In this document: positions 1,006-50,040 of the stretch, in pieces | Layout: every line of letters begins with the position of its first letter | Numbering within the stretch: position 1 is the stretch's first letter | Origin: Candidatus Doudnabacteria bacterium | GTDB taxonomy: Bacteria > Patescibacteriota > Doudnabacteria > UBA920 | Length of the DNA: 64,000 bases | Reading direction: 5' to 3' | Assembly (NCBI GenBank): GCA_963837465.1 | Contig: CAWINB010000004.1 | Span: forward strand, 10,853 to 74,852 | Notes under the pieces: model-generated | Database searches by the model: none | Told to the model about the DNA's origin: nothing | What the model saw: the letters and a program-made list of their open reading frames with translations, nothing else | Program-made: the position numbers and the translations under genes

Positions 1006-1014
1006 CCCGGGCGG

Positions 1015-5679: not shown

Positions 5680-5689
5680 GCCATTGAGG

Positions 5690-7054: not shown

Positions 7055-7065
7055 GCCGCAAACTT

Positions 7066-7100
7066 AACACAAAGGGGAATCCTAACAAGGATTCCCCTTT
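7066..7100 (+). terminator. hairpin AAAGGGGAATCCT-aaca-AGGATTCCCCTTT (terminator / REP-like palindrome)
   Basis: Perfect 13-bp inverted repeat directly after the RNase J fragment stop. It shares the GGGGAATCC core with the hairpin at 7757-7797. Confidence 0.6.
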
Positions 7101-7139
7101 AATTATGACCAATTATGGTATAATAAATAAAATTAAACC

Positions 7140-26563: not shown

Positions 26564-26614
26564 TCACCAGCTAATTTTAACAAATTTTTTAAATATCTTA
26601 AATAGTACCGCAAA

Positions 26615-28600: not shown

Positions 28601-28782
28601 GAAAAAATTGGCTTGATGGTAAATTTAGAAACATATGATTTTTATTTTATTTTTACAGTTATTGGCTATAAATAAGCCATAAACTAACATGCAATACATT
28701 TATGATAATATAAAAAAAGAACTTTCGCAATAGGGGAAAAGAGGCGGCCGCCGGGATGAAAACACCGGCGGCCTGGCAAAGA

Positions 28783-29286: not shown

Positions 29287-29382
29287 CCCACTCGTCCTCC
29301 TTGGACGAATAAGCTATTTTACCAAATCATCCAAAAATAGACAACCGCCAAAAAAGCCGCTCTAATCCGCTGATTATAACTA

Positions 29383-29412
29383 AAACCCCTCCGGCGCGCG
29401 AGGGGTTTTAGG
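29383..29412 (-). terminator. hairpin AAAACCCCTC-cggcgcgc-GAGGGGTTTT
   Basis: 10-bp perfect stem with A/T flanks, 3' of the 957-aa gene. Confidence 0.6.
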
Positions 29413-29430
29413 GTTTATGTTGATTTGACT

Positions 29431-32304
29431 TTATTGCAACCGGCTATCGCCTATTGTCATCGGGGTTAGGATAGACAGGCGGAAGTCCCATTGGTTGGCC
29501 GGGACTATCAGGTTTTGCTGGCCGCCGTTTTGGATGAAGGTGTTCCAGTTGGGAACCGGGATGAGGCCGGTGGAATCGACAAAGTATATGGTTGAACCGC
29601 TCTTTATCCAGCTGCCCCAGGGATGCTGGCTGTATCTGGTTGTTACGGTATAGCCTGAATTCTGCAGACCGGGATTGGCGACCGGAATCACGTTGCTAAA
29701 ACTAAAACCCAGACCCAAAAATGCCGCGGCATTGGAAAATGGAGTTTCCAAATTTTTGTAGACAATATAAACCGTGCCGCCCTGGGAAATTAGTTCGCCG
29801 TTTGGGTAAGTGCTGGCGCCCAATACGCCCCCGCCGGGATACTGCAGGCCACTGCCTGGGTTGGAACCGGAATTGCCCAGGCTGAAATTCTGCGTGGCGC
29901 TGTGGCCATAGCTGTCGTTAACCGTAACGGTAAATGTCTGATAGCCGCCGTAAACCGGAGCGCCTGAAATCAATCCGCCCGAAGACAGCGACAGGCCGCC
30001 TGGAAGACTGCCGCCGCTTAAGGTGTAATAGTAGGGAGCCTGGCCGCCGCTTACCTGCAACTGGTAGTTGTAATATTGTCCTACTGTCATTAAGGGCAAA
30101 GGAGTCGTGGTTGTAAAATACAAACCGCCGTTGCCGTTACCACTGCCGTTATATCCCGCGGTCGTTACATATAAACTGGCGCAGCCGTTGCCGCTGCTTT
30201 GGCAAACCGTGACGGTGCTGGTGCCGGCGCTGGTAGAAGGATAGAGATTTAAGACATTGCCGGAAATGGCGGCGCTGACTATGGCAGGATTGGAGTTGGT
30301 GGAAATATAGTAACTGCCGCTGCCGTAAATATTAACGCTGTCAGTTTGTCCAGACGTCAGCGTCAAACTGGTCTGACTAAGCGTAATGCTGCCGCTATAA
30401 TAACCGGTGCCTACAGTTACATACAAGGTGCCGCAACCTCCGCCGCTGCTTTGGCAAACGGTAATACTGCTGTTACCCGCGGTCTGGCCGTACAAGTTCA
30501 GGCTGCTGCCGGAAATGGTGGCGGTAACTACGTAAGAATTGGAGTTGTTGGAAATATAGTAACCATTATAGCCGTTGTTATAGGAGCTGGAAATGACAAC
30601 GCTGGTATTCTGGCCCGTGCTTAAGCTGACGGAACCGGGACTGAAATAAACCGCCGAACCGCCGCTGCCGCCGTTAACCGTGACGTAAACGCTGGCGCAG
30701 CCGGAGTAACCGGAGCTTTGGCAAACGGTTACCGTGCTGCTGCCCGATTCAAGGGCGCTTAAAAATAAACTGCTGCCGGAAATGGTGGCGCTGACCACGG
30801 ACAGGTTGGAGTTGGTGGAAATATAATAACTGCCGCTGCCGCTGATAATAATATTTGAACTCTGGCCCTGGTTTAAGCTTAAATTGGTTTGGCTTAAATA
30901 AAGACTGCCGCTGGATCCTGAGCCATTTACAGTTACATAAATACTGCCGCACTGGCTGGAACTGCCTCCGCAGACTATTACTGTGGAGCTGCCGGAGCCT
31001 AAGGCATATAAAGTAATTACCGAGCCGCTGACGCTGGCCAATGCTACTCCCGAATTGCTGTTGCTGGAAATATACAGGTAGCCGCCGCTGTAATTATAAG
31101 CGCTGACTGTGGCGCTTTGGCCGGTGGACAAGTTCAGGCTGGTCTGGCTAAGTGAAAGGCCGCCGGTTCCAGTACCATTAACTGTCACATAAACACTGGC
31201 ACAGACAGAAGATCCGGAGCTCTGACAAACGGTAATCGTACTGCCGCCCGTATAAATTCCGGTCAGCAGCAGGGTACTGCCCGAAATAGAGGCGCTGACC
31301 GCGGAGGAGTTGGAATTGCTGGATATGTAATAACTGCCGCCGCCGCTGATAATGACATCTGAACTCTGGCCCTGGCCCAAGTTCAGGCTGGTCTGGCTGA
31401 GCGAGAGCGTGCCGCAGCCGTAATAACCGCAGGAGCCCAAAGAAACCGTAACGTACAAACTGACACACTGGCTGTTTGAATTTTGACAGACGGAAATTGT
31501 GGTATTGCCGGCCGCCAAGGCGCTGACCAAAACACTGCTGCCGGAAATAGAGGCGCTGGCCACGGAGATATTGGAATTGTTGGAAATATAATAGTTGCCG
31601 TAACTGTTCCCGTTGTTATAAATAGCAACATTGGAAGTTTGACCCTGGGATAAACTCAGGCTGGTCTGGCTTAAAGAAAGACTGCCGCTGCCGCAGTTAT
31701 AGCTGTCATATATACAAGAAGAGCCGGTGACAGTAACATATAAAGTGGCGCAAACCCCGTCGGCGCCGCTTGAACAAATGCTGATACTGCTGCTGCCGGA
31801 CGTCTCGCCGTAAACAGCAATCTGGCTGCCGCTAAGAGTTACCGAAGCTATAGAGGAATTGGAATTGCCGGAAATATAGTAACTGCCGCTGCCGTAAACA
31901 GCTATGGAGGAGCTTTGCCCCACGCTTAAACTTAAACTGGTCTGGCTAAGCGACAACCCGTAAGAGGTACCGCAATTATAAGTACAGCCTTCATTGTTAC
32001 CGTTGTTCACCACTTGCTGGCCTGCTACCGTGGCGGTAATTTGCGAACTTACGGAACCGACATCCGTGGTAAAATTACCGTTAACATCGGTAGTACCGGT
32101 AATGGTAGTCGGCAGGCTGCTGCCGGAAGGAGTGAAGTTTATGACCACGGCCGCGTCAGGTTGACCCCCGCTTATGGTTATGGAGTTGTCGCTACCTGAA
32201 CTATAAACACTCATGGTAGGATAATAGGCCAAGACAGGAGCCGCTGATCCTATTAAAAGGCTGACAGATAAGATCAAAATCAAGTTTTTTACCAGCTTCT
32301 TCAT
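29431..32304 (-). CDS. giant secreted adhesin-like protein with >8 tandem Ig-like (Big_2-type) repeats, a putative Ig domain, and the shared C-terminal repeat module
   Basis: Signal peptide. About 85-aa repeats LSLSQTSLSL..GQ.....I.G.GSYYIS.NSN.S......SGS.L.L...GSSTITVCQSSG..CASLYVTV. Then GGQAPYYYTLSGGSLPGGLSL. C-terminal GTVYIVYKN...FLGLGFSF and GSTIYFVDSTGL modules. Confidence 0.6.
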   Translation of the reverse strand: MKKLVKNLILILSVSLLIGSAAPVLAYYPTMSVYSSGSDNSITISGGQPDAAVVINFTPSGSSLPTTITGTTDVNGNFTTDVGSVSSQITATVAGQQVVNNGNNEGCTYNCGTSYGLSLSQTSLSLSVGQSSSIAVYGSGSYYISGNSNSSIASVTLSGSQIAVYGETSGSSSISICSSGADGVCATLYVTVTGSSCIYDSYNCGSGSLSLSQTSLSLSQGQTSNVAIYNNGNSYGNYYISNNSNISVASASISGSSVLVSALAAGNTTISVCQNSNSQCVSLYVTVSLGSCGYYGCGTLSLSQTSLNLGQGQSSDVIISGGGSYYISSNSNSSAVSASISGSTLLLTGIYTGGSTITVCQSSGSSVCASVYVTVNGTGTGGLSLSQTSLNLSTGQSATVSAYNYSGGYLYISSNSNSGVALASVSGSVITLYALGSGSSTVIVCGGSSSQCGSIYVTVNGSGSSGSLYLSQTNLSLNQGQSSNIIISGSGSYYISTNSNLSVVSATISGSSLFLSALESGSSTVTVCQSSGYSGCASVYVTVNGGSGGSAVYFSPGSVSLSTGQNTSVVISSSYNNGYNGYYISNNSNSYVVTATISGSSLNLYGQTAGNSSITVCQSSGGGCGTLYVTVGTGYYSGSITLSQTSLTLTSGQTDSVNIYGSGSYYISTNSNPAIVSAAISGNVLNLYPSTSAGTSTVTVCQSSGNGCASLYVTTAGYNGSGNGNGGLYFTTTTPLPLMTVGQYYNYQLQVSGGQAPYYYTLSGGSLPGGLSLSSGGLISGAPVYGGYQTFTVTVNDSYGHSATQNFSLGNSGSNPGSGLQYPGGGVLGASTYPNGELISQGGTVYIVYKNLETPFSNAAAFLGLGFSFSNVIPVANPGLQNSGYTVTTRYSQHPWGSWIKSGSTIYFVDSTGLIPVPNWNTFIQNGGQQNLIVPANQWDFRLSILTPMTIGDSRLQ

Positions 32305-38854: not shown

Positions 38855-40141
38855 CTATCCGCCAGCGGCCATTTTTTGATGTTCCTTAAGTTTAATGTTT
38901 TTAAATACTGCTGACTTTGCTTCCTGCATAAGTTTTGCCCATCCGTTATGGCTGTGGCCGGTGCTGATGTCATCCAGTTGTTTTTCCGTCCGTCCTGGGG
39001 CAAGGTAGCGTGTCCAATTATCCAGAGTCTTCAGTTTGGCATAGGGAGTTAAGTAAATATCATATTTTTTCTTTTCCTTGCCCTTATGGTCAACCGTGGT
39101 GGTGGCAAAGCCGCAGGGTCTGTGGAAGTTCAGGTAAGGGTTAAAAAACTTCTGGTAAAATTCGTTAATCTCCTGCGCGTAGGTTTTCGGGATATGAGTG
39201 TAGCCCATATACTTTCTGATGACACTGCCGTTCTTGCTTTCCACTAAGGCATTGTCATTGCAGTGCCTGCTTCGTGATTTTGTCTGTTTAATAACTAACC
39301 TTCTAAGAATATCAGCTACCGTGTAATTAATGTTCTCGCTACCGTTGTCAGAGTGGAAGTTAATTACTGTAAAGGGAAACATTTGCTGCAACTGTTCAAA
39401 TATGGGTTTTAAATGCAGCTCGGAAATCGTTTCCACACAGAAGACCATTTCCCATTGGGTGACTTCATCCACCAGGTTTAAGTGGTAAATACCTTTCTCA
39501 TACTTGCCCAAAGCCAGCTTACGGTCGCCCTGATGCACGGTATCCACCCGCAGATAGCCCGGAATGCCCATATTGTCGGGTCTTCTTCTAATACCAATCG
39601 GGGTGCTTACTGGATCGGTTATGGTAAAGGTGGTGGAGTGGCTGGTGTAAATTCTTTTAACTCGCAGATTGTAGATATGGGAAACGGAAATATCTTTTAG
39701 TCTTTTAAACCGTTCGTCACCGAATATTTCATATTCAGCCATTAGGATCTGTTTGGTGGCATGGGCATTCATTCGTTGGTGCAGATTATCGGTTTCAGCC
39801 AGCAATAGTATTTCTGCCGGGCCATAAACAGTAACAAACCGGTTTTTCTTGCCCCAATTCGGGGACAAGGCCACTAACCCACTTCCTCTCTTGTTGGTAA
39901 TCAGTCGTTTTAGCTGTCTGCCCGACATGCCGGTCATCCGTTGGATATATTCCTTAATCTGCCCCTTGTCTTTTTTGCCTTTAAGCCGGACATAGCCAAA
40001 CTTGTTTAAGACGTTGTTAATCCATTCATATTTCTCCTTTCTGGAAACTGAGGTAAAATTAATTGCTGTATTGACCTTTAGAAATTCCTTGATTTGAGCT
40101 ATGCTCGTAACGCTTAAGTCTGTCATATCGATTGTCATCAA
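38855..40141 (-). CDS. DDE transposase, integrase catalytic core (IS481/ISNCY-like)
   Basis: FHSDNGSE and CNDNALVESKN motifs of the rve fold. 428 aa. Confidence 0.65.
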   Translation of the reverse strand: MMTIDMTDLSVTSIAQIKEFLKVNTAINFTSVSRKEKYEWINNVLNKFGYVRLKGKKDKGQIKEYIQRMTGMSGRQLKRLITNKRGSGLVALSPNWGKKNRFVTVYGPAEILLLAETDNLHQRMNAHATKQILMAEYEIFGDERFKRLKDISVSHIYNLRVKRIYTSHSTTFTITDPVSTPIGIRRRPDNMGIPGYLRVDTVHQGDRKLALGKYEKGIYHLNLVDEVTQWEMVFCVETISELHLKPIFEQLQQMFPFTVINFHSDNGSENINYTVADILRRLVIKQTKSRSRHCNDNALVESKNGSVIRKYMGYTHIPKTYAQEINEFYQKFFNPYLNFHRPCGFATTTVDHKGKEKKKYDIYLTPYAKLKTLDNWTRYLAPGRTEKQLDDISTGHSHNGWAKLMQEAKSAVFKNIKLKEHQKMAAGG

Positions 40142-40957: not shown

Positions 40958-41032
40958 GGCGCTATCATCTAACGGTTAGGATAAGTGGTTTTCATCCACT
41001 AAATCGGGGTTCGACTCCCCGTAGCGCTACCA
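40958..41032 (+). tRNA. tRNA-Glu (anticodon TTC)
   Basis: Hand-folded cloverleaf. Acceptor GGCGCTA/TAGCGCT (one G-U). D-arm ATCT/GGAT with GG in the loop. Anticodon stem AGTGG/CCACT, loop TTTTCAT (U33, anticodon TTC, A37). T-arm CGGGG-TTCGACT-CCCCG. Discriminator A, encoded CCA. Confidence 0.8.
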
Positions 41033-41049
41033 AAGAAAATATTTATAAG

Positions 41050-41146
41050 CTAACGGTTAGGATAAGTGGTTTTTCCGCCGGAGGCGGACCCGCCTCCGGC
41101 GGGCATCCACTAAACCTGGGGTTCGATTCTCCGTACCGCTACCAAG
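41050..41146 (+). pseudogene. partial duplicate of tRNA-Glu (D-loop to 3' end) carrying a 30-nt palindromic insertion in the anticodon loop; probable att-site remnant
   Basis: TAACGGTTAGGATAAGTGG-TTTTT-[CCGCCGGAGGCGGACCCGCCTCCGGCGG]-GCAT-CCACT...GGTTCGATTCTCCGTACCGCTACCA. The 5' acceptor strand is absent. T-arm diverged from the intact copy 17 nt upstream. Confidence 0.65.
41074..41103. repeat. 30-nt GC-rich palindromic element, copy 1 (in pseudo-tRNA)
   Basis: TCCGCCGGAGGCGGACCCGCCTCCGGCGGG. 28/30 identical to copy 2 at 57030-57059. Confidence 0.8.
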
Positions 41147-42630
41147 ACCAAACTTTCAGACAATTTAGATTTATTTTCCAGGGCTGCCTTAAGGGCAGCC
41201 CATTGTGTCTGCGGGACAAATTCAATTTTTTGATTTTTTAAAAACAGGTTCGAACCGAAAATTTTTTGTGCAGCCGATTTTTTGGGGTGCAGTTCGGGCG
41301 AAAGCGTTATTTCGCCCAATTTTTCTGCGTCTTTGAGCCATTGCGTCAGGGGTTCAAACCAGGCAGCCCGCTTTTGTTCAAGACGAGCTATTTGCTCCTC
41401 CAAAGACTTCTTTTCCAAGACCAGGCCATTCTTCTGTTCCCGGTAGTTATCCCTCTCAATATCCTGGTCTAAATACATATCCTGAAGTCTTTGGAGCCTG
41501 TGGTCAATGTCCCCAATTTTTGACCGCAGCTCTTGAACAAAAGCCGCCGTGGATTGTGTTGATTCCTGCCGTTTTTTCTCGGCCATAATTAACAATTTTT
41601 CTGCCCAATCTTTGGGCATGACAAATTGCTTTAAAGTTTCTGAAAGCTTGCTGATTAATACCTCGTCCCTGACAAACGGCTGGGAGCAAACAACATTTCT
41701 TTTAGTGCAATGGTAATAGACATAACGGTGGATATTGCCATTTTTTTGTTGTTTAGTCCTTTGCTCGGCCGTAACCCCACGGCCGCATTCGCCACAGTGG
41801 AATAAACCACAGAGTAGCTGGGGATTATTTTTAGTTTCCTTATGCGGCCGACCCCGATAGGCTAAAACCTCTTGGACTTTATCAAACAATTGTTTGCTAA
41901 CAATCGGCTCGTGCTTACCTTGGTATAATTCTCCGCCAAAACGGAATAAGCCACAGTAGATAGGATTAGACAAAAGGTAGGAAATTTTATCCCGTTTGAA
42001 AAGCTTATTGCCTCTAGAAATTAATCCATGACTTTTAAAAAATTCCCCTATATCCTCCAAACGGGATTGATCTTTGGCGTACAGCTCGAAAGCGGCCTTA
42101 ACAATTAGGGTTTTTCTTTGGTCAATAGCTATTTTTTTAGTTCTTAAATCATTAATGTAGCCAATGGGAGCAAGTCCCGGATATTCGCCCCGTTTGGCTT
42201 TTTCGTGCATGCCACGTTTAGTGTTTGCGCTTAAGTCACGTACGTATTGGTTAGCTATTCCAAACTCCATTTGCATCATTAAAACATTATCAGCCGAGTA
42301 ATAGCTTTTATCATGGGTTTGAATGTGCTGGATTATACCCTCTTGCAACATCCAGCTAATTTGGGCGGCATCCACAGGATTGCGGGCTAACCTGTCCAGC
42401 TTCCAGCAAACTATGCCTTGAGCTTCACCTTTGTTAATGCGGACAAGCATATCAGTAAATACAGGGCGACCTGGTCTTTTGGCCGACTGTTTTTCAACAA
42501 ATTCGGAGGCAATATTTAAGCCCTGTTCTTTTGTTAAGGCCCTCAAAACAGCAAGCTGATCTTCAATAGACCGGACTTGCTTGTCTTCTACATCTGTGGA
42601 TTTACGGGCGTAGAGGAAATAATTTGGCAT
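41110..42630 (-). CDS. large serine recombinase no. 2
   Basis: Catalytic-Ser motif YARKSTDVEDKQ. Recombinase domain. Zinc ribbon CGLFHCGECG...YYHC. Coiled-coil. The last ~37 codons lie inside inverted repeat IR1, and the ORF runs into the pseudo-tRNA. Confidence 0.75.
   Translation of the reverse strand: MPNYFLYARKSTDVEDKQVRSIEDQLAVLRALTKEQGLNIASEFVEKQSAKRPGRPVFTDMLVRINKGEAQGIVCWKLDRLARNPVDAAQISWMLQEGIIQHIQTHDKSYYSADNVLMMQMEFGIANQYVRDLSANTKRGMHEKAKRGEYPGLAPIGYINDLRTKKIAIDQRKTLIVKAAFELYAKDQSRLEDIGEFFKSHGLISRGNKLFKRDKISYLLSNPIYCGLFRFGGELYQGKHEPIVSKQLFDKVQEVLAYRGRPHKETKNNPQLLCGLFHCGECGRGVTAEQRTKQQKNGNIHRYVYYHCTKRNVVCSQPFVRDEVLISKLSETLKQFVMPKDWAEKLLIMAEKKRQESTQSTAAFVQELRSKIGDIDHRLQRLQDMYLDQDIERDNYREQKNGLVLEKKSLEEQIARLEQKRAAWFEPLTQWLKDAEKLGEITLSPELHPKKSAAQKIFGSNLFLKNQKIEFVPQTQWAALKAALENKSKLSESLVLVAVRRIEPQV
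41140..41252. repeat. inverted repeat IR1, left copy (113 bp)
   Basis: taccaagaccaaactttcagacaattt...aaaaacaggttcg. Reverse-complement identical to 44463-44575. Confidence 0.85.
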
Positions 42631-42854
42631 AAATTTTACTCTTAAAAATTAAAGGGGCAGTCCTGGCTACCCAGCTCCACCAAAACGAGTTTGGATTTGC
42701 TGGCAGGACTGCCACCTCAATAGCAAAAGGGCAAAATAAAATCGCTTTGGGATATAGAACTGGGTAGCAAGGATATTATACCATATATAAAATTTTCAGC
42801 AATTATTTCAGTTAGTTTTTGGCAATTTCGTCCTAAAAAGAGTAAAATTTTAGC

Positions 42855-44375
42855 ATGAGTCTTTACGATAACTATAAACCACTAAGAAATAACCTAAGAC
42901 GGCTTGAACTTTTTGATTCACTGTACGTAATTTGGGCGTACGCCCAACATCTACAATTTGGCAATCCATTCCCAGACAATATTCAAGTATGGAATAAATT
43001 TGTAAATAATGCCACGGAAATGCCACGAGAGACGTACCTATCCCCTTGGGACTTAGAGACTTTAACACGCGAATTAATACTACACGCCCCTATTGGCAAC
43101 AACTTATCAGATAAAAGCTTGCGCAAATGGGATAATTTAGCTAATACAAAAAATAAATTCAGGGAACTAGAGAATCAAATAGGCGCAGAATTTGTGAATA
43201 AAGATAATATATTAATGGAAATGTTTCGAATTGCCCACCGGCAGTTTTTGTGGCAAATTCACCCAAGCCAAATTTATATGTACAGGTACTACAGAATTTT
43301 TGGTTCTGAGGAAATGGGAAAAATTGTAGAAAATAAACTGGGTGTCACTACATACAAATTACACCTCGTTGGTACGGCCCTATTGGGCCATTTTTTGGGA
43401 AGCAATATTTTACGTTACCCAATAAGGGTTGAAATTCCCAGCGTAAACGCTGACATGCTAAAAGAGGTAATAGCCTTAAGTTCTTCCGAATTAGAAAATA
43501 TACGGGAAAAACTTCAGGGAGAATCCACGTTGGATGAAAAATTTTCTTATGCAAATTACGCGTTACGGGCTCACCCACTTATCAAAACTAAAATTCAAGG
43601 TCAGGATGTACTAATTTGCCCATTGCCCACCCTTTTATATTGGCGGTATACTAGCGGGCTTTATTATGAACTTTACAATGAAAACGGGTTTGATAACGCT
43701 TTTGGTGGTTCATTCCAAAACTACGTTGGAGAAGTGCTCAGAAAAGCAAACCCCAACCAACAAGTTATCCCATCAATGAAATTTGATAAGACATCAAAAG
43801 AAACAATTGACTGGATTTTGTCTGAAGACGAATCGGCTTTATTCATTGAATGCAAAATGAAACGGTTGCCTGTTCCGGTCAAGATGGAGTTAAACAACAC
43901 TGGCCCGCTGGATGGACAACTGGACACAATAACAAATATAATTTTGCAAGTTTACAAAACTATTAAGGACTACAAAGAAAATAAATACCCAAATTTTCCA
44001 TACCAAAAAGATAGGGTTATATTCCCTTTAATTTTAACCTTGGAGGACTGGTACTGGTTTCCTGATGTCATAGAGGCAAAATTAAACACCATGCTTGAAG
44101 ACAAATTTAAAGCGAGCGGTATCCCTATAGAATGGCTGGACGAAATACCTTATTCACTTTGCTCAATAAATGAATTTGAGAACATGGCGCAAATTATTAA
44201 CAAAGTAGGTATTAAAAATTTTATGGACAAAAAGCTTACCAATAAAGAAAAGAGGCGCTGGCATTTTGGCCCGTTTATGGTTAAGGAATTTCCAAAAGAA
44301 TATTCTGCCAAAAAATTCTTGTTTGAAAAGGAATTTAACAATGAATTTCCAGTAAAGGGAAGCGATGTAGTCTAA
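42855..44375 (+). CDS. hypothetical 506-aa cytoplasmic protein with PD-(D/E)xK-like motif (candidate nuclease cargo)
   Basis: No signal peptide. The segment IDWILSEDESALFIECKMK fits D-x13-E-x-K spacing of the restriction-endonuclease-like fold. Otherwise unrecognised. Confidence 0.4.
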   Translation: MSLYDNYKPLRNNLRRLELFDSLYVIWAYAQHLQFGNPFPDNIQVWNKFVNNATEMPRETYLSPWDLETLTRELILHAPIGNNLSDKSLRKWDNLANTKNKFRELENQIGAEFVNKDNILMEMFRIAHRQFLWQIHPSQIYMYRYYRIFGSEEMGKIVENKLGVTTYKLHLVGTALLGHFLGSNILRYPIRVEIPSVNADMLKEVIALSSSELENIREKLQGESTLDEKFSYANYALRAHPLIKTKIQGQDVLICPLPTLLYWRYTSGLYYELYNENGFDNAFGGSFQNYVGEVLRKANPNQQVIPSMKFDKTSKETIDWILSEDESALFIECKMKRLPVPVKMELNNTGPLDGQLDTITNIILQVYKTIKDYKENKYPNFPYQKDRVIFPLILTLEDWYWFPDVIEAKLNTMLEDKFKASGIPIEWLDEIPYSLCSINEFENMAQIINKVGIKNFMDKKLTNKEKRRWHFGPFMVKEFPKEYSAKKFLFEKEFNNEFPVKGSDVV

Positions 44376-44462
44376 AGCCACGCGGTGGGTTGGGTGGGTC
44401 AAGTGGCTTTGCGTTTTGGTGTTAATTGCGTTCTGCGGCCCCCAAAAAATCTTCCCTGTTCC

Positions 44463-44575
44463 CGAACCTGTTTTTAAAAAATCAAAAAATTGAATTTGTC
44501 CCGCAGACACAATGGGCTGCCCTTAAGGCAGCCCTGGAAAATAAATCTAAATTGTCTGAAAGTTTGGTCTTGGTA
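44463..44575. repeat. inverted repeat IR1, right copy (113 bp)
   Basis: cgaacctgtttttaaaaaatcaaaaaattgaatttgtcccgcagacacaatgggctgcccttaaggcagccctggaaaataaatctaaattgtctgaaagtttggtcttggta. Exact reverse complement of 41140-41252 as far as I can align by eye. Confidence 0.85.
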
Positions 44576-44934
44576 CCTTTATTCGATATTTTACAAACCT
44601 ATTATACCCAAAACAGCTAATTTTGGCCACCCAATTTAGCCTGTTTTAGCTGCCAAAATTAGCCAGCTAGGTGGTAGAACGGGTAGTAGAACAGGGTTCT
44701 ACCACTAAAACTCATAAACCCCTTGATTCTATTGACTCTGTCCCAAACAAAAACCGCGGACTACCTACCACCAGGTAATCAACTGAACGACCAATACTAC
44801 TACTAACTCTAATACTAAAATACCTTAAAAATACTACTCAAAATACATAAATCTTAACCAACTAACTAAACTAATCTAAACCAAAACACAAAAAACATCA
44901 AAACCTAAAAATCAATACAAAAGGGTGTGGGGGG
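44572..44934. repeat. inverted repeat IR2, left copy (~362 bp), contiguous with IR1 right copy
   Basis: ggtacctttattcgatattttacaaacc...aaaagggtgtggggg. Reverse complement of 50620-50981 with at least one mismatch (T/C at ~44676). Confidence 0.8.
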
Positions 44935-45072: not shown

Positions 45073-48000
45073 TTATCTTAAGTTGTTAATAAAACTTCTG
45101 GTTAGAGTGTCTAGTGCCCCATTATCGGCCTTAATCCCAATTTGCGTTTTGTACTTGTTTTGGAAACTCTTTAAAGCTGCTTTAGTCGCAAGGCCAAACA
45201 AAGTAGTTTCGTGTCCAGGAGAACCAATTGCTCCATTTGGGGCAACAGCGAAGTTATTATTGTTTAAGAACTGCTGCAAAGCCGTAACGTCCACCCCTTT
45301 GCTTAAGTAGCCAAGGTTTCGGGTAAAGATTATGGTGGCAGGAATGAGGCCAGTAGATTGGTTAGTTGCGGCCGGAGCTGGACTGGACAGAGCGGTTTGG
45401 CCCAGGACCTGGCTGGCTGTTTCTGACTCTATGGTATACGGGGCTTTGGAGCCTCTTAGTACAGTTAATTTCTCCCCACTTTGGCTTTGATATTGCTGGA
45501 AGCTCAAGAAAGTATCAAAAGGATATAAGCCATTAGGCTTAACCAGGTAGATAGTCGGGTTGCCTTTAAACTGTAATAGCTGGCCATCGTGGACATTGTA
45601 TGGTAGGACTACGGTAACAGAGGGTGATATATTGGTTGTTGGTGGAGTTGGTAATATTAGGTATGGAATGGATGTCGGAGTCGAAGTTGGCGATGGTGCC
45701 ACAGTTCCTGCCAAGGTCAGGGTGGTGAATGTATAATCTCCGGAAACATTAAACTGTAAGTTAGGGTCTTTAACCCTAAAATGGTACAAAGTGGCCGGGT
45801 TTAGGCTGGTTAAGATAAGGCTATGGCTTGTTGCGGGTGTAGAACTAGAAACAGTTGAACCGTAAGAGGAGGTTGTGCCATAGTCTACAGAGGAGCCAAT
45901 TTGATAATTGGTTTGCCAGGACACAATTATTGAAGTAGGTGTTGTATTGGAAACCTGGACGTTGCTGAAACTGGCATAAATAGCACCTCCGCCTCCGCCG
46001 GAACTCACTACATTCGTGGAGCAGGATACGGACACATTGGTAATGTTAGATGAGGCTACCGTACCGCTGCCATTAGTTACGTTACAGGTTTGGCCTGATG
46101 GCTGAGTTAAAACCGTAACATTGTATGTGCCGCCGGTGCTGGTGGCTGTGGCGAAAATAAAGCTAGTATTAGTTGTAGTGCTTATATTATTTCCGCCATT
46201 ATTCTGTAAAACAACAGTCCCAGTTAAGCCAGAAATATTACCGCCAATTGTGTAGGTAGGATTATTGGAACACGAAACTGAAACGTTGCTCACGTTCGCG
46301 GAAGATACTGTGCCACTACCATTGGTGACACTACAGGTTTGACCGCTAGGCTGGGTCAAAACAGTTACAGAATAACTGGCACTATTGTTTAAAGCTGTGG
46401 CAAAAATAAATGAGCCATTGGTGGAAGTGCTGTAGTTATCTCCCCCGTTATCCTGGAGGACCACGGTGCCGGACAGGCCAGAAATGGTGCCACCGATGGT
46501 GTAGGTTGTAGAAGAAGATTGATAAGCGCCAATATCGGGGGATGAACTGTAAAGGACTTGAGTACCGCTAGAATTTTTATAGAGATAAACCGGATTTCCC
46601 GAAGACCTAGTTATTGGACTAGCCAATGTTATAACATTGGTTGAATAATTAATTGAGGAGATTTGTACTGTAGTGGCTGAGCCTACCCTAATCCAGTCGG
46701 CATTTACTATCCCTGAACCATCGGAAAAGAACCCGGCGTCATTAACAACCAACGAAGTTCCAGAGCCTGTGTCAGAGTTCGCTACTGTTGTAAGGTAAGT
46801 TCCAGCGCCGCGGGCTGGGGAAGAATTTTGCAGTTGAAAATTCCCTGATGGTGGAGTGGCTACGTTTGTCAAAAGTGGATCTTGGTTAAGTACAACTCCT
46901 GATTCTGAAGACAAACTGCTCTGCCATGAGCCAGAATAGCCTTGGTTAAAAACAAGTGTGTTACCACTAATTGTAGGCGAAGAGCTGGCATCAGTTAAAA
47001 TATCATAATATCCATTTACAATATCGTTGTACAGAAGATTATTAAGCCACGCCCCACCGGTAGCTCCTACTCCAGGCATATAGTTCCAAGAAGCTGTATA
47101 GTCTGGTGGTAAGACTGTATTAATAATATCATTATTATAAACTTTTGATTGTGGTATGCCCTGACTAAGTACGAAGTAACCACCGCTTCCATAATAGGTA
47201 TTAAATCTGGTAATTACTCCTGTTGGATTATCAACAGTTGGAGTCTCGGCCTGTAGTAAAGAAAAATGAGTATTGTACTCAGGGGTGTTATACATGACGT
47301 TATTCTCCATCAGCAGATGAATTAATGGCGTCCCTGTAACGTCCCATGTTTGCATTCCGTCAAGATGGGCGGTTGTTGTCGCCGCATATGAATATGTTCC
47401 AGTAGTTCCGGCAAATGGGGTATAAAGAGTCAAGGATGTGCTACTGCTTATTGATAAAATAGAATATACAAGGCTACCAATTGAAATTGCGTATACATTA
47501 CCACCAGCCCAACTGGAATCAAATACTGTTCCCGATGCCCATGTGACTGTAGTGCTGCCATTAGTAACATTCACAGTACCCATGGTTGAAACAAAATCTG
47601 TGCTGGCGCTATCATGCCAAGTATTATTGCGCAACACATCGTAAGAGCCATGAACATGCGTGTAATCTAAAACATGCGAAATATCGTTTGAGTCAATCAA
47701 ATTATAGTTTCCATATACATCAATTCCATATGTACCGGACGCGTTATACCCTGCCCAAGAAATTGTGTTGTTGGAAATTGTACAGTAATTCGAATTATTG
47801 CTTGGGTTATACGGCGATTGGTTAAATCCTACACCAAATCCTCCGGTATAGCTTATAATATTATTGCTGACAATGACGTGTGATGCGGCGATAAGCTGTA
47901 CACCTCTCAACCCAGCCGCATTATGATTACCAATATAAAATCCTTGAATTGCAATATAATTTTGGCCTGACACTACAAAAGCATTAACTAGCACGGTGTC

Positions 48001-50040
48001 TCCGGTATGGGCTTGAAAAACAATAGGGTTACCCGAAATACCCGAGGCAGGAACACTGACTGTCTCTGAATATGTGCCCGCGTAAACCGTGCAGGTGTCT
48101 CCTGCTAAAGCAGCATTCGCACACGCCTGAATTGTTGTAAAATCACCTCCACCGGCTGATTTAACAGCGTACATAATGCCGCTTGGGGTTGCCTGACTTT
48201 GCATTGTATAGGCAGCCTTGTTGCCAGCCTCATCTTTGACCACAACATTAAAGTAATAGGTCGTAGATGGATACAAACCTGTCACGTTGAATGTGCTGAT
48301 GTTTTGGGTAAACGACTGAATAATACTACCATTTGTTTCGGCATTAGCTACTGTACTAATGTTACTACTGGTAGATTCAATAACTTCATACTGGAGGTTG
48401 GCTTGCAGCGAAACATTGTCCGTAGCCGCTGTCCAGTTAAGAGTAAGGCTGTGAGCCGCGACACTAGCTGCGCTGATTGCCCCGCTACTGCCCGGGACAG
48501 GTGGGGTGGTATCTGGCGCAGTAGTGGTAAAGGTTAAGTCCGTAGATGTAGCAACGTTACCCGAAGAATCAGAAGAAGCTACCTGAAAATGATAAAGGGT
48601 ACTTGTAGCCAGGCCAGTTAAAGTTATGGAGTGAGAAGTCACAAATGAGGCCGATGATGAAGCTGTTCCGTAACCGGAGGTTAGCCCATAATTAACTGTA
48701 GATGTTGCGCTTTCGTCAGTAGTCCAAGTTATAATGGCAGTAGTTTGAGTTGTTGATGAGGCTATAGAAGAAATTACGGGAGGGGTGACGTCGGCGCTTG
48801 TTTGACCGATGTAAGACAAAAGCATACGAGTAGATTGCGGCGTACTGGAAGGAGTGACTTGAGTATCATACAATGCTCCATTTGTGGGAGTAAATGAGCC
48901 TGAGGCCGATCCAGTAGTTGTCGCTGCGCCGGATATGCTAATTGGAAAAGTGGTTGAAGCATTGCCACCGTTCTCGCGCAATACAGTGGCCCAAGATTTA
49001 GTGTTACCTGGGGCACCAATAACTTTGGCATAAAGACCTACTAGGTTGTAGTCGGACCAGCCAAGTGTTTGTGTTTGAGTTTCAGTGGCTGAAATTGTGT
49101 TTGTGCCTGATAATCCTAAGTAATTAACAGCCGAATTTGAAGGCGTAGTATTGGCGATGGGAATGATAAAATCCCCGGTGGTGTTTGGAACGAAAACTAA
49201 ACCAAAAGCTCCTTGAGCAGAAGTAGGGGTACCGGAGGCTGTTTGGACAATATCTATAAGATCGCCTGGTACGACCGACACATTATCACCGGAATTTGTG
49301 TCCGAGAGAACGCCAGTACTGGCGGCATTAAATGTCGTAGCTAAAGTTGTGGTCGCTCCATTTTTTCTCAGAGCAAAAGACTCGCCATTACCAGAGCCAG
49401 GAGCAGCGGATAAGTAAGTGTATAAATGTTCCAAAGTCCCGGTCGCCGGAACTACAATTTGAACATTGCCCTCTGTCGCACTACCTGCAACACCTACTAA
49501 ACCATAGTATGTCGTGCTTGTAGCAAAATTTCCGCCTGTTCCTGACATAAGCACGGTCTCGCCAGCAGTTGTCGGAAGGAAATCCAACATGAACGAAACG
49601 CGCGCACCAGTAGCAGGAGTTCCACTTGGTGTAACTGAGACCGAGACTCGGTTACCGGCTGTAATGTTCACAGTGTCGTTTGTATCGGAACAACTTGTTG
49701 CCAAATCACTTATCGTGCAAGTTAAAGCCGTATTTGCAAGTTCATCGCGAAAAGTTATAACATAAGATTTGCCGGTACCTGGAGCAGTGTCAAGTTGCAC
49801 ACGTAATTTCTGTACAGTTCCGCTAGACGGAGCAATCTGATAAGCATTGATTTCAGCGTTCTGCGGGGGAAGAGCCCCAAAAGGAGAAAAATAGCGAACT
49901 GCTCCGGTACTAGTCTGGCCATCATATGACCCAAACCATTTAGACGGCAAACTGGCTGCCGAGGCTTTACCGACAAAGCTAAAAGCACACACCACAAAAA
50001 ATGCCAGTAAGGTTAATTTGTTGTTTAAAAATTTAGTCAT
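45073..50040 (-). CDS. giant (1655 aa) secreted surface protein: FN3 domains, right-handed beta-helix region, tandem ~80-aa repeats, C-terminal repeat module and peptidoglycan-binding (PG_binding_1-like) domain
   Basis: Signal peptide MTKFLNNKLTLLAFFVVCAFSFVGKASA. FN3-like IITWTTDESATSTVNYG...LYHFQV and IIVSWQTNYQIGSSVDYG...LYHFRV. Beta-helix repeats NNIISYTGGFGVGFN...ISNNTISWAG...IDSNDISH. Duplicated YTIGG.ISGL.GTVVLQ.NGG.N.ST.TN.SFIFATA modules. C-terminal LQQFLNNNNFAVAPNGAIGSPGHETTLFGLATKAALKSFQ. Confidence 0.65.
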   Translation of the reverse strand: MTKFLNNKLTLLAFFVVCAFSFVGKASAASLPSKWFGSYDGQTSTGAVRYFSPFGALPPQNAEINAYQIAPSSGTVQKLRVQLDTAPGTGKSYVITFRDELANTALTCTISDLATSCSDTNDTVNITAGNRVSVSVTPSGTPATGARVSFMLDFLPTTAGETVLMSGTGGNFATSTTYYGLVGVAGSATEGNVQIVVPATGTLEHLYTYLSAAPGSGNGESFALRKNGATTTLATTFNAASTGVLSDTNSGDNVSVVPGDLIDIVQTASGTPTSAQGAFGLVFVPNTTGDFIIPIANTTPSNSAVNYLGLSGTNTISATETQTQTLGWSDYNLVGLYAKVIGAPGNTKSWATVLRENGGNASTTFPISISGAATTTGSASGSFTPTNGALYDTQVTPSSTPQSTRMLLSYIGQTSADVTPPVISSIASSTTQTTAIITWTTDESATSTVNYGLTSGYGTASSSASFVTSHSITLTGLATSTLYHFQVASSDSSGNVATSTDLTFTTTAPDTTPPVPGSSGAISAASVAAHSLTLNWTAATDNVSLQANLQYEVIESTSSNISTVANAETNGSIIQSFTQNISTFNVTGLYPSTTYYFNVVVKDEAGNKAAYTMQSQATPSGIMYAVKSAGGGDFTTIQACANAALAGDTCTVYAGTYSETVSVPASGISGNPIVFQAHTGDTVLVNAFVVSGQNYIAIQGFYIGNHNAAGLRGVQLIAASHVIVSNNIISYTGGFGVGFNQSPYNPSNNSNYCTISNNTISWAGYNASGTYGIDVYGNYNLIDSNDISHVLDYTHVHGSYDVLRNNTWHDSASTDFVSTMGTVNVTNGSTTVTWASGTVFDSSWAGGNVYAISIGSLVYSILSISSSTSLTLYTPFAGTTGTYSYAATTTAHLDGMQTWDVTGTPLIHLLMENNVMYNTPEYNTHFSLLQAETPTVDNPTGVITRFNTYYGSGGYFVLSQGIPQSKVYNNDIINTVLPPDYTASWNYMPGVGATGGAWLNNLLYNDIVNGYYDILTDASSSPTISGNTLVFNQGYSGSWQSSLSSESGVVLNQDPLLTNVATPPSGNFQLQNSSPARGAGTYLTTVANSDTGSGTSLVVNDAGFFSDGSGIVNADWIRVGSATTVQISSINYSTNVITLASPITRSSGNPVYLYKNSSGTQVLYSSSPDIGAYQSSSTTYTIGGTISGLSGTVVLQDNGGDNYSTSTNGSFIFATALNNSASYSVTVLTQPSGQTCSVTNGSGTVSSANVSNVSVSCSNNPTYTIGGNISGLTGTVVLQNNGGNNISTTTNTSFIFATATSTGGTYNVTVLTQPSGQTCNVTNGSGTVASSNITNVSVSCSTNVVSSGGGGGAIYASFSNVQVSNTTPTSIIVSWQTNYQIGSSVDYGTTSSYGSTVSSSTPATSHSLILTSLNPATLYHFRVKDPNLQFNVSGDYTFTTLTLAGTVAPSPTSTPTSIPYLILPTPPTTNISPSVTVVLPYNVHDGQLLQFKGNPTIYLVKPNGLYPFDTFLSFQQYQSQSGEKLTVLRGSKAPYTIESETASQVLGQTALSSPAPAATNQSTGLIPATIIFTRNLGYLSKGVDVTALQQFLNNNNFAVAPNGAIGSPGHETTLFGLATKAALKSFQNKYKTQIGIKADNGALDTLTRSFINNLR

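What the first reader, a model, noticed from the sequence alone, without database searches (positions are those of the whole stretch)
42855..44375. Unannotatable 506-aa cargo protein beside the recombinase with a PD-(D/E)xK-like motif
This intact, cytoplasmic-looking ORF lies inside the IR1-bounded segment, divergent from the serine recombinase. The only motif I can read is IDWILSEDESALFIECKMK (D ... E-x-K with about 13-residue spacing), as in restriction-endonuclease-fold nucleases. tRNA-adjacent recombinase islands often carry defence or addiction cargo. The call is inference only.
Basis: inference. Interest (0 to 1): 0.6.

Follow-up and report, generated by a model that had tools for sequence, protein, structure and literature searches.

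The report
Distant GapS1-like antiphage nuclease gene
The 506-codon gene is real and strongly conserved, and encodes a distant relative of GapS1, a known single-protein bacterial anti-virus nuclease; it sits beside a tRNA-targeting recombinase, which is a sensible, useful annotation but not a surprise.

Summary
The ORF at 42855-44375 (+) is confirmed, as is the motif: D319, E332 and K334 are invariant in about 270 homologues. An AlphaFold2 model (pLDDT 90.5) puts them on strands 2 and 3 of a canonical PD-(D/E)xK core. All meaningful PDB fold matches are PD-(D/E)xK nucleases, and the best is the anti-phage protein Upx.

The protein is not unannotatable. NCBIfam's GapS1 antiphage model hits it at E=3e-19, far below the curated cutoff (69 vs 320 bits). 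A profile-profile comparison with validated GapS1 proteins gives 96.8% probability over 352 columns, with catalytic residues in register with GAPS1's essential D313/K328.

The family is rare (127 of 185,579 species genomes) and scattered across Patescibacteria, Alphaproteobacteria, Nitrospirota and DPANN archaea. It has no conserved partner gene. It often sits near integrases, R-M, TIR or Septu genes. In Patescibacteria it recurs next to homologous large serine recombinases whose 3' ends overlap tRNA genes. Against an 86%-identical orthologue, dN/dS is 0.055.

Best reading: a single-protein sensor-plus-nuclease defence gene of a GapS1 sister clade, carried as mobile-element cargo. Trigger, substrate and defence activity are untested. 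The 113-nt inverted repeat is real but unexplained.

The parts
42855..44375 (+). Target gene: 506-aa GapS1-like single-protein PD-(D/E)xK nuclease
   Evidence: ORF. 257 homologues and 3,257 cluster representatives at E<=1e-3. NF047931 GapS1 match at E=3.3e-19. hhalign against GapS1 gives probability 96.8%. dN/dS is 0.055 against the L010 orthologue.
42855..43679 (+). Residues 1-275: mostly helical N-terminal domain, the presumed sensor or regulatory part. It contains the conserved motif RIAHRQFxWQ (R125, H128, R129, W133, Q134) and R144.
   Evidence: AF2 domain model, pLDDT 90.4. Its only PDB neighbour is Upx (probability 0.99, TMq 0.47, E=0.017). Invariant columns. Q134 and R144 are also invariant in GapS1. 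Residues 1-115 are not alignable to GapS1. The sensor role is an inference.
43680..44054 (+). Residues 276-400: PD-(D/E)xK nuclease core (helix 279-298, strands 303-306, 320-323 and 327-334, helix 350-374, strand 388-395)
   Evidence: Secondary structure of the model. Foldseek hits to PD-(D/E)xK nucleases. Weak Pfam DUF4143 match at residues 280-335. This is the most conserved region of the family.
43809..43856 (+). Catalytic motif D319 ... E332-C-K334 (codons 319-334)
   Evidence: Invariant in 272 family members and in register with D/D-x-K of 30 GapS1 proteins. GAPS1 D313A and K328A abolish defence.
44055..44372 (+). Residues 401-506: C-terminal helical region, the least conserved part of the family. 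It aligns to GapS1 up to about residue 481.
42819..42848 (+). Promoter-like site TTGGCA-18-TAAAAT, ending 6 nt before the ATG (possibly a leaderless or near-leaderless transcript)
   Evidence: Consensus scan only. The region had 9 sites against 7.7 expected by chance, so this is weak evidence.
41110..42630 (-). Large serine recombinase (506 aa), transcribed divergently from the target. Its last codons are encoded on the complement of a tRNA-like 3' end.
   Evidence: Pfam Resolvase, Recombinase and Zn_ribbon_recom. NCBIfam CcrB/CcrC/XisF-like. phrog_95 integrase. Homologous recombinases lie next to target homologues in 7 Patescibacteria loci.
41140..41252 (.). Left arm of the perfect 113-nt inverted repeat. 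It lies inside the recombinase 3' coding end, and its outer edge is the last 6 nt of the pseudo-tRNA.
44463..44575 (.). Right arm of the inverted repeat, 88 nt downstream of the target stop codon. It re-encodes the recombinase C-terminal residues on the + strand. Inward of the arm (44426-44462) the similarity continues in degenerate form.
   Evidence: The same unit is colinear at 73% nucleotide identity in L010, whose contig ends inside the arms.
40958..41032 (+). Intact tRNA-Glu(UUC)
   Evidence: ARAGORN. Rfam tRNA, 59.7 bits.
41044..41145 (+). Degenerate second tRNA-Glu copy. It has no 5' acceptor strand, carries a 30-nt GC hairpin in the anticodon loop, and overlaps the recombinase stop codon. 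It is the probable attachment-site remnant.
   Evidence: Direct repeats D2, D4 and D10. Sequence. In five other loci an intact tRNA overlaps the recombinase 3' end in the same way.

Best explanation
The gene encodes a self-contained, single-polypeptide anti-phage defence protein belonging to a deep sister clade of GapS1 (GAPS1).

Shown:
- It is an expressed-looking, selectively maintained 506-aa soluble protein.
- It has an N-terminal helical domain (residues 1-275), a canonical PD-(D/E)xK nuclease core (276-400) with active-site residues D319, E332 and K334, and a C-terminal helical region.
- It is homologous to GapS1 over about 350 residues, with catalytic residues in register.
- It has no conserved partner gene.
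- It is a sporadically distributed accessory gene that often lies in mobile elements or defence neighbourhoods.
- In this window it is the only cargo next to a tRNA-associated large serine recombinase.

Inferred by analogy with GAPS1 (capsid-triggered, dormancy-inducing, dependent on D313/K328) and with Upx (terminase-triggered):
- The helical part holds the nuclease inactive until it binds a phage-made protein.
- The Mg2+-dependent nuclease then cuts nucleic acid, whose identity is unknown.
- This arrests the infected cell or the phage cycle.

The recombinase moves the gene between genomes and is not part of the defence mechanism.
For: Homology.
- NF047931 antiphage_GapS1 is the only significant family hit for the window protein: E=3.3e-19, residues 112-453 against profile positions 79-429 of 455.
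- It is also the only hit for all 8 of 8 relatives tested.
- BLASTP against the validated E. coli GapS1 (WP_032260687.1, 508 aa) aligns ETIDWILSEDESALFIECK with KVVDFLLPHDEANIFIDAK.
- hhalign of the family (A1) against 23 GapS1 proteins (A3) gives probability 96.8%, E=2.4e-10 and 352 columns.

Active site.
- D319, E332 and K334 are invariant.
- The D-to-K spacing is 15, as in GAPS1 D313/K328, whose alanine mutants lose defence.
- The Vibrio GAPS1 active-site peptide was reconstructed from the mutagenesis primers.

Fold.
- AF2 model with pLDDT 90.5.
- PDB hits are all PD-(D/E)xK nucleases, led by the defence protein Upx at E=1.4e-5.
- The N-terminal domain alone also finds only Upx.

Single-gene module.
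- No neighbour family is present in more than 7 of 76 loci.
- 98 Pfam families occur among 123 flanking proteins, none in more than 2.

Accessory or defence context.
- Relatives occur in 127 of 185,579 species genomes, across unrelated phyla and DPANN archaea.
- Neighbours include Type I/II/III R-M, Septu PtuA/B, PglX and PDC-S53.
- Others include TIR clusters, dGTPase, a Gabija-like ATPase plus helicase, and ThiF/multiubiquitin.
- One homologue is inserted inside a pur operon, and others lie on conjugative plasmids.
- E. coli gapS1 itself sits directly beside a prophage integrase.

Selection. dN/dS is 0.055 against the L010 orthologue, with 86% amino-acid identity, while the adjacent recombinase is only 60% identical.
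Against: - No experiment exists for this clade.
- It scores 69 bits against a curated GapS1 cutoff of 320, whereas true GapS1 proteins score 327-402 bits.
- Profile-level identity to GapS1 is only about 16%.
- The first 115 residues do not align to GapS1.
- PADLOC 2.0 does not recognise the protein.
- The window protein has Ser at position 307, where 243 of 272 family members and 30 of 30 GapS1 proteins have Glu. This may be an auxiliary metal ligand.
- Many immediate neighbours in other genomes are ordinary housekeeping genes. I did not test defence-island enrichment statistically against a background.
- GAPS1's own substrate is unknown, so the mechanism is borrowed from an incompletely understood system.
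Confidence: 0.72

Rival explanations
1. It is a solitary restriction-type endonuclease: a methylation-dependent Type IV enzyme, or the nuclease half of a Type II/IIS system. It would cut foreign DNA directly by sequence or modification, with no phage-protein trigger.
For: Fold hits include R.BspD6I, Nt.BspD6I, FokI, SdaI and McrC. A few homologues lie directly beside DNA methyltransferases: L004/L056 have a 628-aa D12/N6_N4 MTase two genes upstream, and L018 has an adjacent MTase fusion.
Against: There is no methyltransferase in the window's element. MTase adjacency is rare among 123 flanking genes. The only family-level sequence homology is to GapS1, not to any REase model in PADLOC, NCBIfam or Pfam. 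The large conserved helical domain shared with GapS1 and Upx fits a sensor or regulator better than a DNA-recognition domain, although that was not tested.
Confidence: 0.1
2. It is an accessory or selfish function of the recombinase element itself: a nuclease that helps excision, integration or target cleavage, or a toxin that stabilises the element (addiction). It would not be an antiviral protein.
For: It sits inside the IR-bounded unit with the recombinase. The unit is conserved as a whole in L010. Homologous recombinases recur near homologues in 7 Patescibacteria loci. PD-(D/E)xK nucleases such as TnsA do serve transposons (established knowledge).
Against: 69 of 76 loci have no such recombinase within 6 kb. 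In L021 the IR-bounded unit contains only the recombinase, and the homologue lies 2.8 kb outside it. The family occurs on plasmids, inside a pur operon and in defence clusters without that recombinase. No antitoxin-like partner is conserved.
Confidence: 0.08
3. In this particular genome it is a catalytically impaired or decaying copy, because the near-invariant Glu307 is replaced by Ser.
For: Ser307 in the window protein, against Glu in 243/272 family members and 30/30 GapS1 proteins.
Against: The ORF is intact. The same Ser is present in an orthologue that has diverged to 73% nucleotide identity, and dN/dS is 0.055. About 8% of family members carry A, Q, G, P, K or S at this position. D319, E332 and K334 are all intact.
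Confidence: 0.06
4. It is a housekeeping DNA-repair or recombination nuclease (RecB/Cas4-like).
For: A conserved Gln on the helix after the ExK strand (Q365), reminiscent of RecB-family motifs. The PD-(D/E)xK fold in general.
Against: It is present in only 127 of 185,579 species genomes, with a patchy cross-phylum distribution. Context is variable and synteny is not conserved. There is no match to any repair family model.
Confidence: 0.02

Closest known systems
[quoted passage not shown]
   Same: It is a single protein of about 500 aa (506 here, 508 in E. coli gapS1). The domain order is the same, with the PD-(D/E)xK site at about residue 315-335. The catalytic D and K are in register, 15 residues apart. 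Other residues are shared (Q134, R144, G284, Q365, T395). Homology spans about 350 residues. It is carried at the edge of a mobile element next to an integrase or recombinase (one search compared with the window).
   Different: Profile-level identity is only about 16%, and the score is 69 bits against a 320-bit curated cutoff. The motif is ExK rather than DxK. The first 115 residues are unalignable. The window copy has Ser for the conserved Glu307. The hosts are Patescibacteria, Alphaproteobacteria, Nitrospirota and DPANN rather than mainly Enterobacteriaceae and Vibrio. The carrier is a large serine recombinase rather than a GMT island or P2-like prophage. No functional data exist.
Upx (single-protein dual PD-(D/E)xK anti-phage nuclease; PDB 9wuf; PMC13099982, PMC13601566)
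   Same: It is the best structural match in the PDB, both for the whole model (E=1.4e-5, probability 1.0) and for the N-terminal helical domain alone, where it is the only hit (probability 0.99, TMq 0.47). The logic is the same: one polypeptide with a large sensor region plus a C-terminal D...ExK nuclease, activated by a phage protein.
   Different: Upx has about 1,212-1,272 aa, three domains and two nuclease centres. TM-scores are low (0.33-0.47). There is no detectable sequence similarity. Its D-to-E spacing is 15, against 13 here. Upx senses terminase, whereas GAPS1 senses capsid.
Type IIS restriction/nicking endonuclease catalytic domains (R.BspD6I small subunit 2p14, Nt.BspD6I, FokI)
   Same: The PD-(D/E)xK catalytic core fold (2p14 at E=9e-4, TMt 0.47).
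   Different: Only the core of about 150 residues matches. There is no cognate methyltransferase and no recognisable DNA-recognition domain. No sequence-level relationship exists.
Pfam DUF4143 (PF13635), the restriction-endonuclease-like domain found C-terminal to some AAA ATPases
   Same: A weak local match over the catalytic strands, residues 280-335.
   Different: E=0.0043 and 17.3 bits, below the gathering score of 28.1. There is no AAA ATPase domain. The protein is not a member.

Membership tests
GapS1 family (NCBIfam NF047931, as used by PGAP) | Whole-protein score at or above the curated cutoff of 320 bits | tested here: not met
   The window protein scores 69.1 bits and eight relatives score 28-92 bits. 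Bona fide GapS1 proteins score 327-402 bits.
GAPS1 homologues as defined by the discoverers (PSSM hit with E<=1e-15 and >=70% coverage) | Significant, near-full-length similarity to a GAPS1 profile | tested here: inconclusive
   Their PSSM was not available. Using the NCBIfam HMM as a proxy gives E=3.3e-19 over 351 of 455 profile positions, 77%. hhalign gives 96.8% probability over 352 columns. None of this clade's named genera appear in the stored, truncated part of their Dataset S4.
GapS1 / GAPS1 | Conserved PD-(D/E)xK active site toward the C-terminus, with the Asp and Lys essential for defence (D313, K328) | tested here: met
   D319 and K334 are invariant in 272/272 members and align to the invariant D and K of 30 GapS1 proteins. 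The spacing is the same, 15 residues. Essentiality was not tested.
GapS1 / GAPS1 | Single-protein system with no obligate partner gene | tested here: met
   No neighbour family occurs in more than 7 of 76 loci. There are 98 Pfam families among 123 flanking proteins, none in more than 2. In the window the gene stands alone between a divergent recombinase and a convergent surface-protein gene.
GapS1 / GAPS1 | [quoted passage not shown] | not testable with these tools
   This needs plaque assays, escape mutants and co-expression toxicity tests, as.
PD-(D/E)xK nuclease superfamily | An alpha-beta-beta-beta-alpha-beta core with Asp at the start of strand 2 and (D/E)xK on strand 3 | tested here: met
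   The AF2 model has pLDDT 90.5, with helix 279-298, strands 303-306, 320-323 and 327-334, helix 350-374 and strand 388-395. Foldseek hits are to PD-(D/E)xK nucleases. The 3D clustering of the side chains could not be inspected.
Upx | A three-domain protein of about 1,200 aa with two nuclease centres (NTD, MD, CTD) | tested here: not met
   The protein has 506 aa and one PD-(D/E)xK motif. Similarity is structural only, with TMq 0.33-0.47, and no sequence match was found.
Restriction-modification system (Type II/IIS) | A cognate DNA methyltransferase encoded next to the nuclease | tested here: not met
   There is no MTase in the element or in the adjacent window genes. MTase adjacency is rare among homologues.
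Pfam DUF4143 (PF13635) | Score at or above the gathering threshold of 28.1 bits | tested here: not met
   17.3 bits, E=0.0043.

The most novel reading that the evidence does not exclude
This clade may be a distinct, so far unrecognised single-gene immune family with its own trigger specificity. It would be one of the few defence systems carried by ultra-small symbionts (Patescibacteria and DPANN archaea). In this lineage it would travel as the sole cargo of a previously undescribed kind of tRNA-targeting large-serine-recombinase cassette, whose ends are long (113-165 nt) inverted copies of the recombinase's own 3' end. Such a unit might excise or self-invert. In addition, GapS1-like proteins may correspond structurally to one half of Upx, which would link two defence families that are currently treated as unrelated.
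Probability: 0.15. Interest if true: 0.55.

Novelty: new member of a known kind. Interest (0 to 1): 0.3.

Why it matters
It turns a 'hypothetical protein' into a testable prediction: an anti-phage sensor-nuclease. The same applies to a family of several hundred close relatives (257 at 90% clustering; 749 of 3,257 50%-identity cluster representatives at E<=1e-30) that Pfam, PADLOC 2.0 and PGAP do not currently name.

It extends GapS1-like immunity far beyond Enterobacteriaceae and Vibrio, to Patescibacteria, Nitrospirota, Alphaproteobacteria and DPANN archaea. Defence repertoires in these reduced-genome symbionts are poorly charted.

The very distant but alignable sister clade also shows which residues are truly constrained across GapS1-like proteins: D, D/E-x-K, Q134, R144, Q365 and T395. 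That can guide work on GAPS1's still unknown substrate and activation mechanism.

This is a useful annotation and a modest extension of a known system. It is not a new principle.

Tried and rejected
- Pfam, PADLOC and PHROGs gave nothing usable. Pfam returned only DUF4143 at E=0.0043, PADLOC only a chance-level Cas6b hit, and PHROGs nothing.
- PDB sequence searches, with the single protein and with the family profile, found no relative.
- The word-indexed profile search returned the same 258 proteins, none of them named.
- The exhaustive HMMER search showed a large superfamily but lists only the top 150, so it could not bridge to GapS1.
- The viral structure library gave no significant hit, so this is not a phage family.
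- The GAPS1 paper's supplements contain no protein sequences.
- The synthetic-gene fragment for WP_152927281.1 found nothing in E. coli genomes. The fragment for EJP5250929.1 did, and that solved the problem.
- Dataset S4 does not mention this clade's genera, but the stored copy is truncated.
- A conserved partner gene was looked for and rejected.
- The idea that the long inverted repeats are a universal feature of these recombinase islands was rejected: L022, L023, L038 and L076 have no inverted copy.
- A scan of metagenome contigs for the IR arm, to find the opposite orientation, gave 0 hits.
- P0002's apparently truncated N-terminus turned out to be a gene-calling artefact. The ORF is full length.
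- The identical protein P0001 could not be traced to a named organism. The Patescibacteria assignment of the window is therefore inferred from its closest homologues and the 868-kb contig.
Full report
OBSERVATION. Upstream and divergent lies a 506-aa large serine recombinase at 41110..42630 on the - strand. It has Resolvase, Recombinase and Zn_ribbon_recom domains, is CcrB/CcrC/XisF-like by NCBIfam, and matches phrog_95 integrase at 9.5e-74. A perfect 113-nt inverted repeat at 41140-41252 / 44463-44575 brackets most of the recombinase gene and the whole target gene. The right arm re-encodes the recombinase C-terminal residues on the opposite strand. tRNA-Glu(UUC) lies at 40958-41032. It is followed by a degenerate second copy at 41044-41145 that overlaps the recombinase stop codon.

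IS THE MOTIF MORE THAN CHANCE? A D...ExK string is common by chance, so conservation is the real test. The protein has 257 homologues (90% clusters) in the word-indexed search. An exhaustive HMMER search with a 51-sequence alignment (A1) found 3,257 cluster representatives (50% identity clusters) at E<=1e-3, 749 of them at E<=1e-30. In A1, whose members are 36-46% identical to the window protein, D319, E332 and K334 are invariant. In a larger alignment of 272 family members, D319 and K334 are 272/272 and E332 is 271/272. The gene is also under strong purifying selection. The orthologue in L010 has diverged to 73% nucleotide identity across the whole unit, yet its protein is 86% identical and dN/dS is 0.055. 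The adjacent recombinase has drifted to 60% identity.

FOLD. An AlphaFold2 model built on A1 is confident, with mean pLDDT 90.5 and pTM 0.90. Residues 1-275 are mostly helical. Residues 279-395 run helix 279-298, strands 303-306, 320-323 and 327-334, helix 350-374 and strand 388-395. This is the PD-(D/E)xK core, with D319 at the start of strand 2 and E332/K334 on strand 3. Foldseek against the PDB returns PD-(D/E)xK nucleases as the only meaningful matches. These are Upx (9wuf, E=1.4e-5), the R.BspD6I small subunit (9e-4), Nt.BspD6I, FokI, the R2 retrotransposon endonuclease, Cdn1, McrC and Shedu. The weak Pfam DUF4143 hit over residues 280-335 (E=0.0043, below threshold) points the same way.

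FAMILY. The protein is not unannotatable. NCBIfam NF047931, 'antiphage_GapS1', matches at E=3.3e-19 over residues 112-453, against profile positions 79-429 of 455. The score of 69 bits is far below the curated cutoff of 320. Eight other members, including distant plasmid-borne ones, hit only this model, at 28-92 bits.

GAPS1 was discovered in Vibrio parahaemolyticus GMT islands. It is a single protein with a C-terminal PD-(D/E)xK domain. D313A and K328A abolish defence, the T7 capsid protein Gp10 triggers it, the outcome is dormancy, and the nucleic-acid target is unknown. E. coli homologues only 24-29% identical to it also defend.

To test the relationship directly I recovered a bona fide GapS1. 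The paper's Table S3 gives the first ~400 nt of the validated E. coli homologue EJP5250929.1. Megablast located it in E. coli Ecol_AZ147, where it is annotated 'gapS1: GapS1 family protein' (WP_032260687.1, 508 aa). It lies immediately downstream of the integrase of a P2-like prophage. BLASTP of the window protein against it aligns the catalytic strands in register, ETIDWILSEDESALFIECK against KVVDFLLPHDEANIFIDAK, at E=8e-4. A profile-profile comparison of A1 with an alignment of 23 GapS1 proteins (A3) gives probability 96.8%, E=2.4e-10 and 352 aligned columns. These cover window residues 116-481 and GapS1 residues 104-481, at about 16% identity.

In the joint alignment, the GapS1 proteins have D, D and K (30/30 each) at the columns of D319, E332 and K334. 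They also share Q134, R144, G284, Q365 and T395. The Vibrio GAPS1 site reconstructed from the mutagenesis primers reads GKVV-D313-FLHQRNGTSIFI-D326-A-K328 and has the same spacings. True GapS1 proteins score 327-402 bits on NF047931. The window protein therefore belongs to a clearly separate sister clade of the GapS1 family. It is homologous and has the same architecture, but it is not callable as GapS1 by the curated threshold, and its first ~115 residues are not alignable.

DISTRIBUTION AND CONTEXT. Pattern scanning of one genome per species found 127 relatives among 185,579 species. The 80 best break down by record titles as follows:
- 24 Patescibacteria
- 29 Alphaproteobacteria
- 9 Beta- or Gammaproteobacteria
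- 7 Nitrospirota or Nitrospinota
- 4 Bacteroidota
- 2 DPANN archaea
- 5 others: Akkermansia, Ktedonosporobacter, an Anaerolineaceae bacterium, a Methylomirabilota bacterium and one unclassified bacterium

Rarity combined with phylogenetic scatter marks a horizontally moving accessory gene. Clustering 760 neighbour ORFs within 6 kb from 76 loci revealed no conserved partner. The 123 immediately flanking proteins fall into 98 Pfam families, none seen more than twice. The protein is therefore a single-gene module.

Neighbourhoods inspected individually are often defensive or mobile:
- Type I R-M
- a DNA methyltransferase
- DUF3800, YaaC, WYL and TIR genes in Tardiphaga
- a five-gene TIR cluster on a Sinorhizobium plasmid
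- a DNA invertase on a Bacillus cereus plasmid
- IS5, UvrD and ThiF/multiubiquitin genes in Agrobacterium
- an ATPase plus helicase, dGTPase and dTMP kinase on a Rhizobium plasmid
- an insertion splitting a pur operon
- Type II/III R-M, Septu PtuA/B, PglX and PDC-S53 hits among flanks

Other flanks are plain housekeeping genes. I did not test enrichment statistically.

The only recurrent neighbour is a large serine recombinase homologous to the window's (24-37% identity). It occurs in 7 of 76 loci, all of them Patescibacteria. The recombinase association is thus lineage-specific carriage, not part of the system.

MECHANISM (shown versus inferred). Four things are shown:
- a soluble two-part protein with an intact, invariant PD-(D/E)xK site;
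- homology to GapS1 across both the helical and nuclease parts;
- single-gene organisation;
- accessory, mobile distribution with strong purifying selection.

The rest is inferred by analogy. GAPS1 is triggered by a capsid protein and acts through its nuclease residues. Upx, the closest solved structure, is triggered by terminase binding to its sensor domain and acts through an ExK nuclease. On that basis the helical region would keep the nuclease off until it binds a phage-made protein. The Mg2+-dependent nuclease would then cut DNA or RNA and stop the infection, probably at the cost of growth arrest. The N-terminal domain modelled alone (pLDDT 90.4) has a single PDB neighbour, again Upx (probability 0.99, TMq 0.47, E=0.017), with everything else at E>1. 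This fits a shared sensor-nuclease architecture but is weak evidence.

CAVEATS. No member of this clade has been tested. The window protein and its 86% orthologue have Ser307 where 243/272 family members and 30/30 GapS1 proteins have Glu. About 8% of the family lacks an acidic residue there, and the Ser307 lineage is under strong constraint. I read this as a tolerated variant rather than decay, but it could change activity. The source organism could not be named. Patescibacteria is inferred from the closest homologues and the 868-kb contig.

RIVALS. Four alternatives were considered:
- A solitary restriction-type enzyme remains possible, since the fold hits include such enzymes and a few homologues have MTase neighbours. 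It lacks a cognate MTase here and has no sequence-level support.
- An element-maintenance or addiction role is contradicted by the 69 of 76 loci without the recombinase, and by L021, where the IR-bounded unit excludes the homologue.
- A housekeeping repair role is excluded by the distribution.
- A decaying copy is contradicted by dN/dS.

THE ELEMENT (side finding, only partly resolved). In L021, L022, L023, L038 and L076, the recombinase 3' end overlaps the 3' end of an opposite-strand tRNA: Gln, His, Ser, Asn and Glu respectively. In the window it overlaps the pseudo-tRNA in the same way. This implies that the attachment site lies inside the recombinase 3' end. Long inverted copies of that 3' end exist in three places:
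- the window (113 nt, 100%);
- L010, which has the same 3.2-kb unit and whose contig terminates in the arms;
- L021 (about 165 nt, 93-97%), where the repeat encloses only the recombinase.

No such copies are detectable in the other four loci. Whether these are terminal repeats of a discrete cassette, the sites of a Hin-like inversion, or a fossil duplication is not settled. A metagenome scan for the arm found nothing.

VERDICT. The gene is best described as a GapS1-like single-protein anti-phage nuclease of a divergent sister clade, carried as cargo beside a tRNA-associated serine recombinase. It is a new, distant member of a known kind of system. It is worth annotating and testing, but its interest is moderate to low (0.3).

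Noticed in passing
window 41110-42630, 41044-41145; L021 5349-6910; L022 5388-7061; L023 6803-8496; L038 4919-6535; L076 17137-18742: In six independent Patescibacteria loci, the 3' end of a large serine recombinase gene overlaps the 3' end of an opposite-strand tRNA gene (Glu, Gln, His, Ser, Asn, Glu). The attachment site appears to lie inside the recombinase's own last codons.
   Followed up: partly
window 41140-41252 / 44463-44575; L010 1-60 / 3257-3316; L021 5414-5576 / 6964-7134: There are long inverted repeats that copy the recombinase 3' end. They enclose recombinase plus GapS1-like cargo in the window and L010, but only the recombinase in L021. The outer edge of the left arm coincides with the last 6-7 nt of the tRNA. 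Four sister loci lack them. Each window arm contains the palindrome GGGCTGCC-TTAAG-GGCAGCCC. Possible explanations are cassette ends, an invertible segment or a fossil duplication.
   Followed up: partly
window 41044-41145: A second, degenerate tRNA-Glu copy lies directly after the intact one. It lacks the 5' acceptor strand and has a 30-nt GC-rich perfect hairpin (TCCGCCGGAGGCGGACCCGCCTCCGGCGGG) inserted in the anticodon loop, in an otherwise AT-rich region.
   Followed up: partly
window 43773-43775 (codon 307): The window protein and its 86% orthologue carry Ser where 243/272 family members and all 30 GapS1 proteins have Glu. The lineage is nevertheless under strong purifying selection, with dN/dS 0.055.
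   Followed up: yes
window 41110-44375 vs L010: Within the same 3.2-kb unit, the cargo protein is much better conserved (86% aa identity) than the recombinase that carries it (60%).
   Followed up: yes
window 1-7000: The first ~7 kb are 59-71% G+C, whereas the remainder is mostly about 36-55% G+C. This stretch has many overlapping ORFs on both strands, one of which carries an SBP_bac_5 solute-binding domain. It may be foreign DNA or an assembly chimera.
   Followed up: no
window 38855-40141 (-): A 428-aa ORF with a weak rve integrase core and IS3/IS481-like transposase similarity lies just upstream of the tRNA-Glu. This adds to the mobile character of the patch.
   Followed up: no
window 45073-50040 (-), 24098-32304 (-): There are very large predicted surface proteins. 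One has 1,655 aa with fn3/PhoD_N-like repeats and a peptidoglycan-binding domain. Others have 821, 661 and 957 aa with fn3, Big_7, He_PIG and pilus-N domains.
   Followed up: no
window 44780-44910: A low-complexity A/C-rich tract (…aaccaactaactaaactaatctaaaccaaaacacaaaaaac…) lies in the ~500-nt non-coding gap between the right IR arm and the convergent surface-protein gene.
   Followed up: no
L018 8399-9928 (-): Directly upstream of a homologue in a Patescibacteria genome is a 510-aa fusion of a LexA DNA-binding domain, an S24 peptidase and an N6_N4 DNA methyltransferase. Peptidase_S24 and LexA_DNA_bind each matched two flanking proteins. This may be a damage-responsive methyltransferase.
   Followed up: no
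L098 4973-7527 (E. coli Ecol_AZ147): The experimentally validated E. coli gapS1 sits at the very edge of a P2-like prophage, immediately downstream of the integrase and cI. This mirrors the integrase-adjacent position of the window gene.
   Followed up: partly
model m021eb44d538a (window residues 1-275) vs PDB 9wuf: The helical N-terminal domain has Upx as its only structural neighbour in the PDB. The nuclease half also matches Upx best. GapS1-like proteins may resemble one half of the pseudo-symmetric Upx monomer. The aligned Upx residue ranges were not available to check this.
   Followed up: partly
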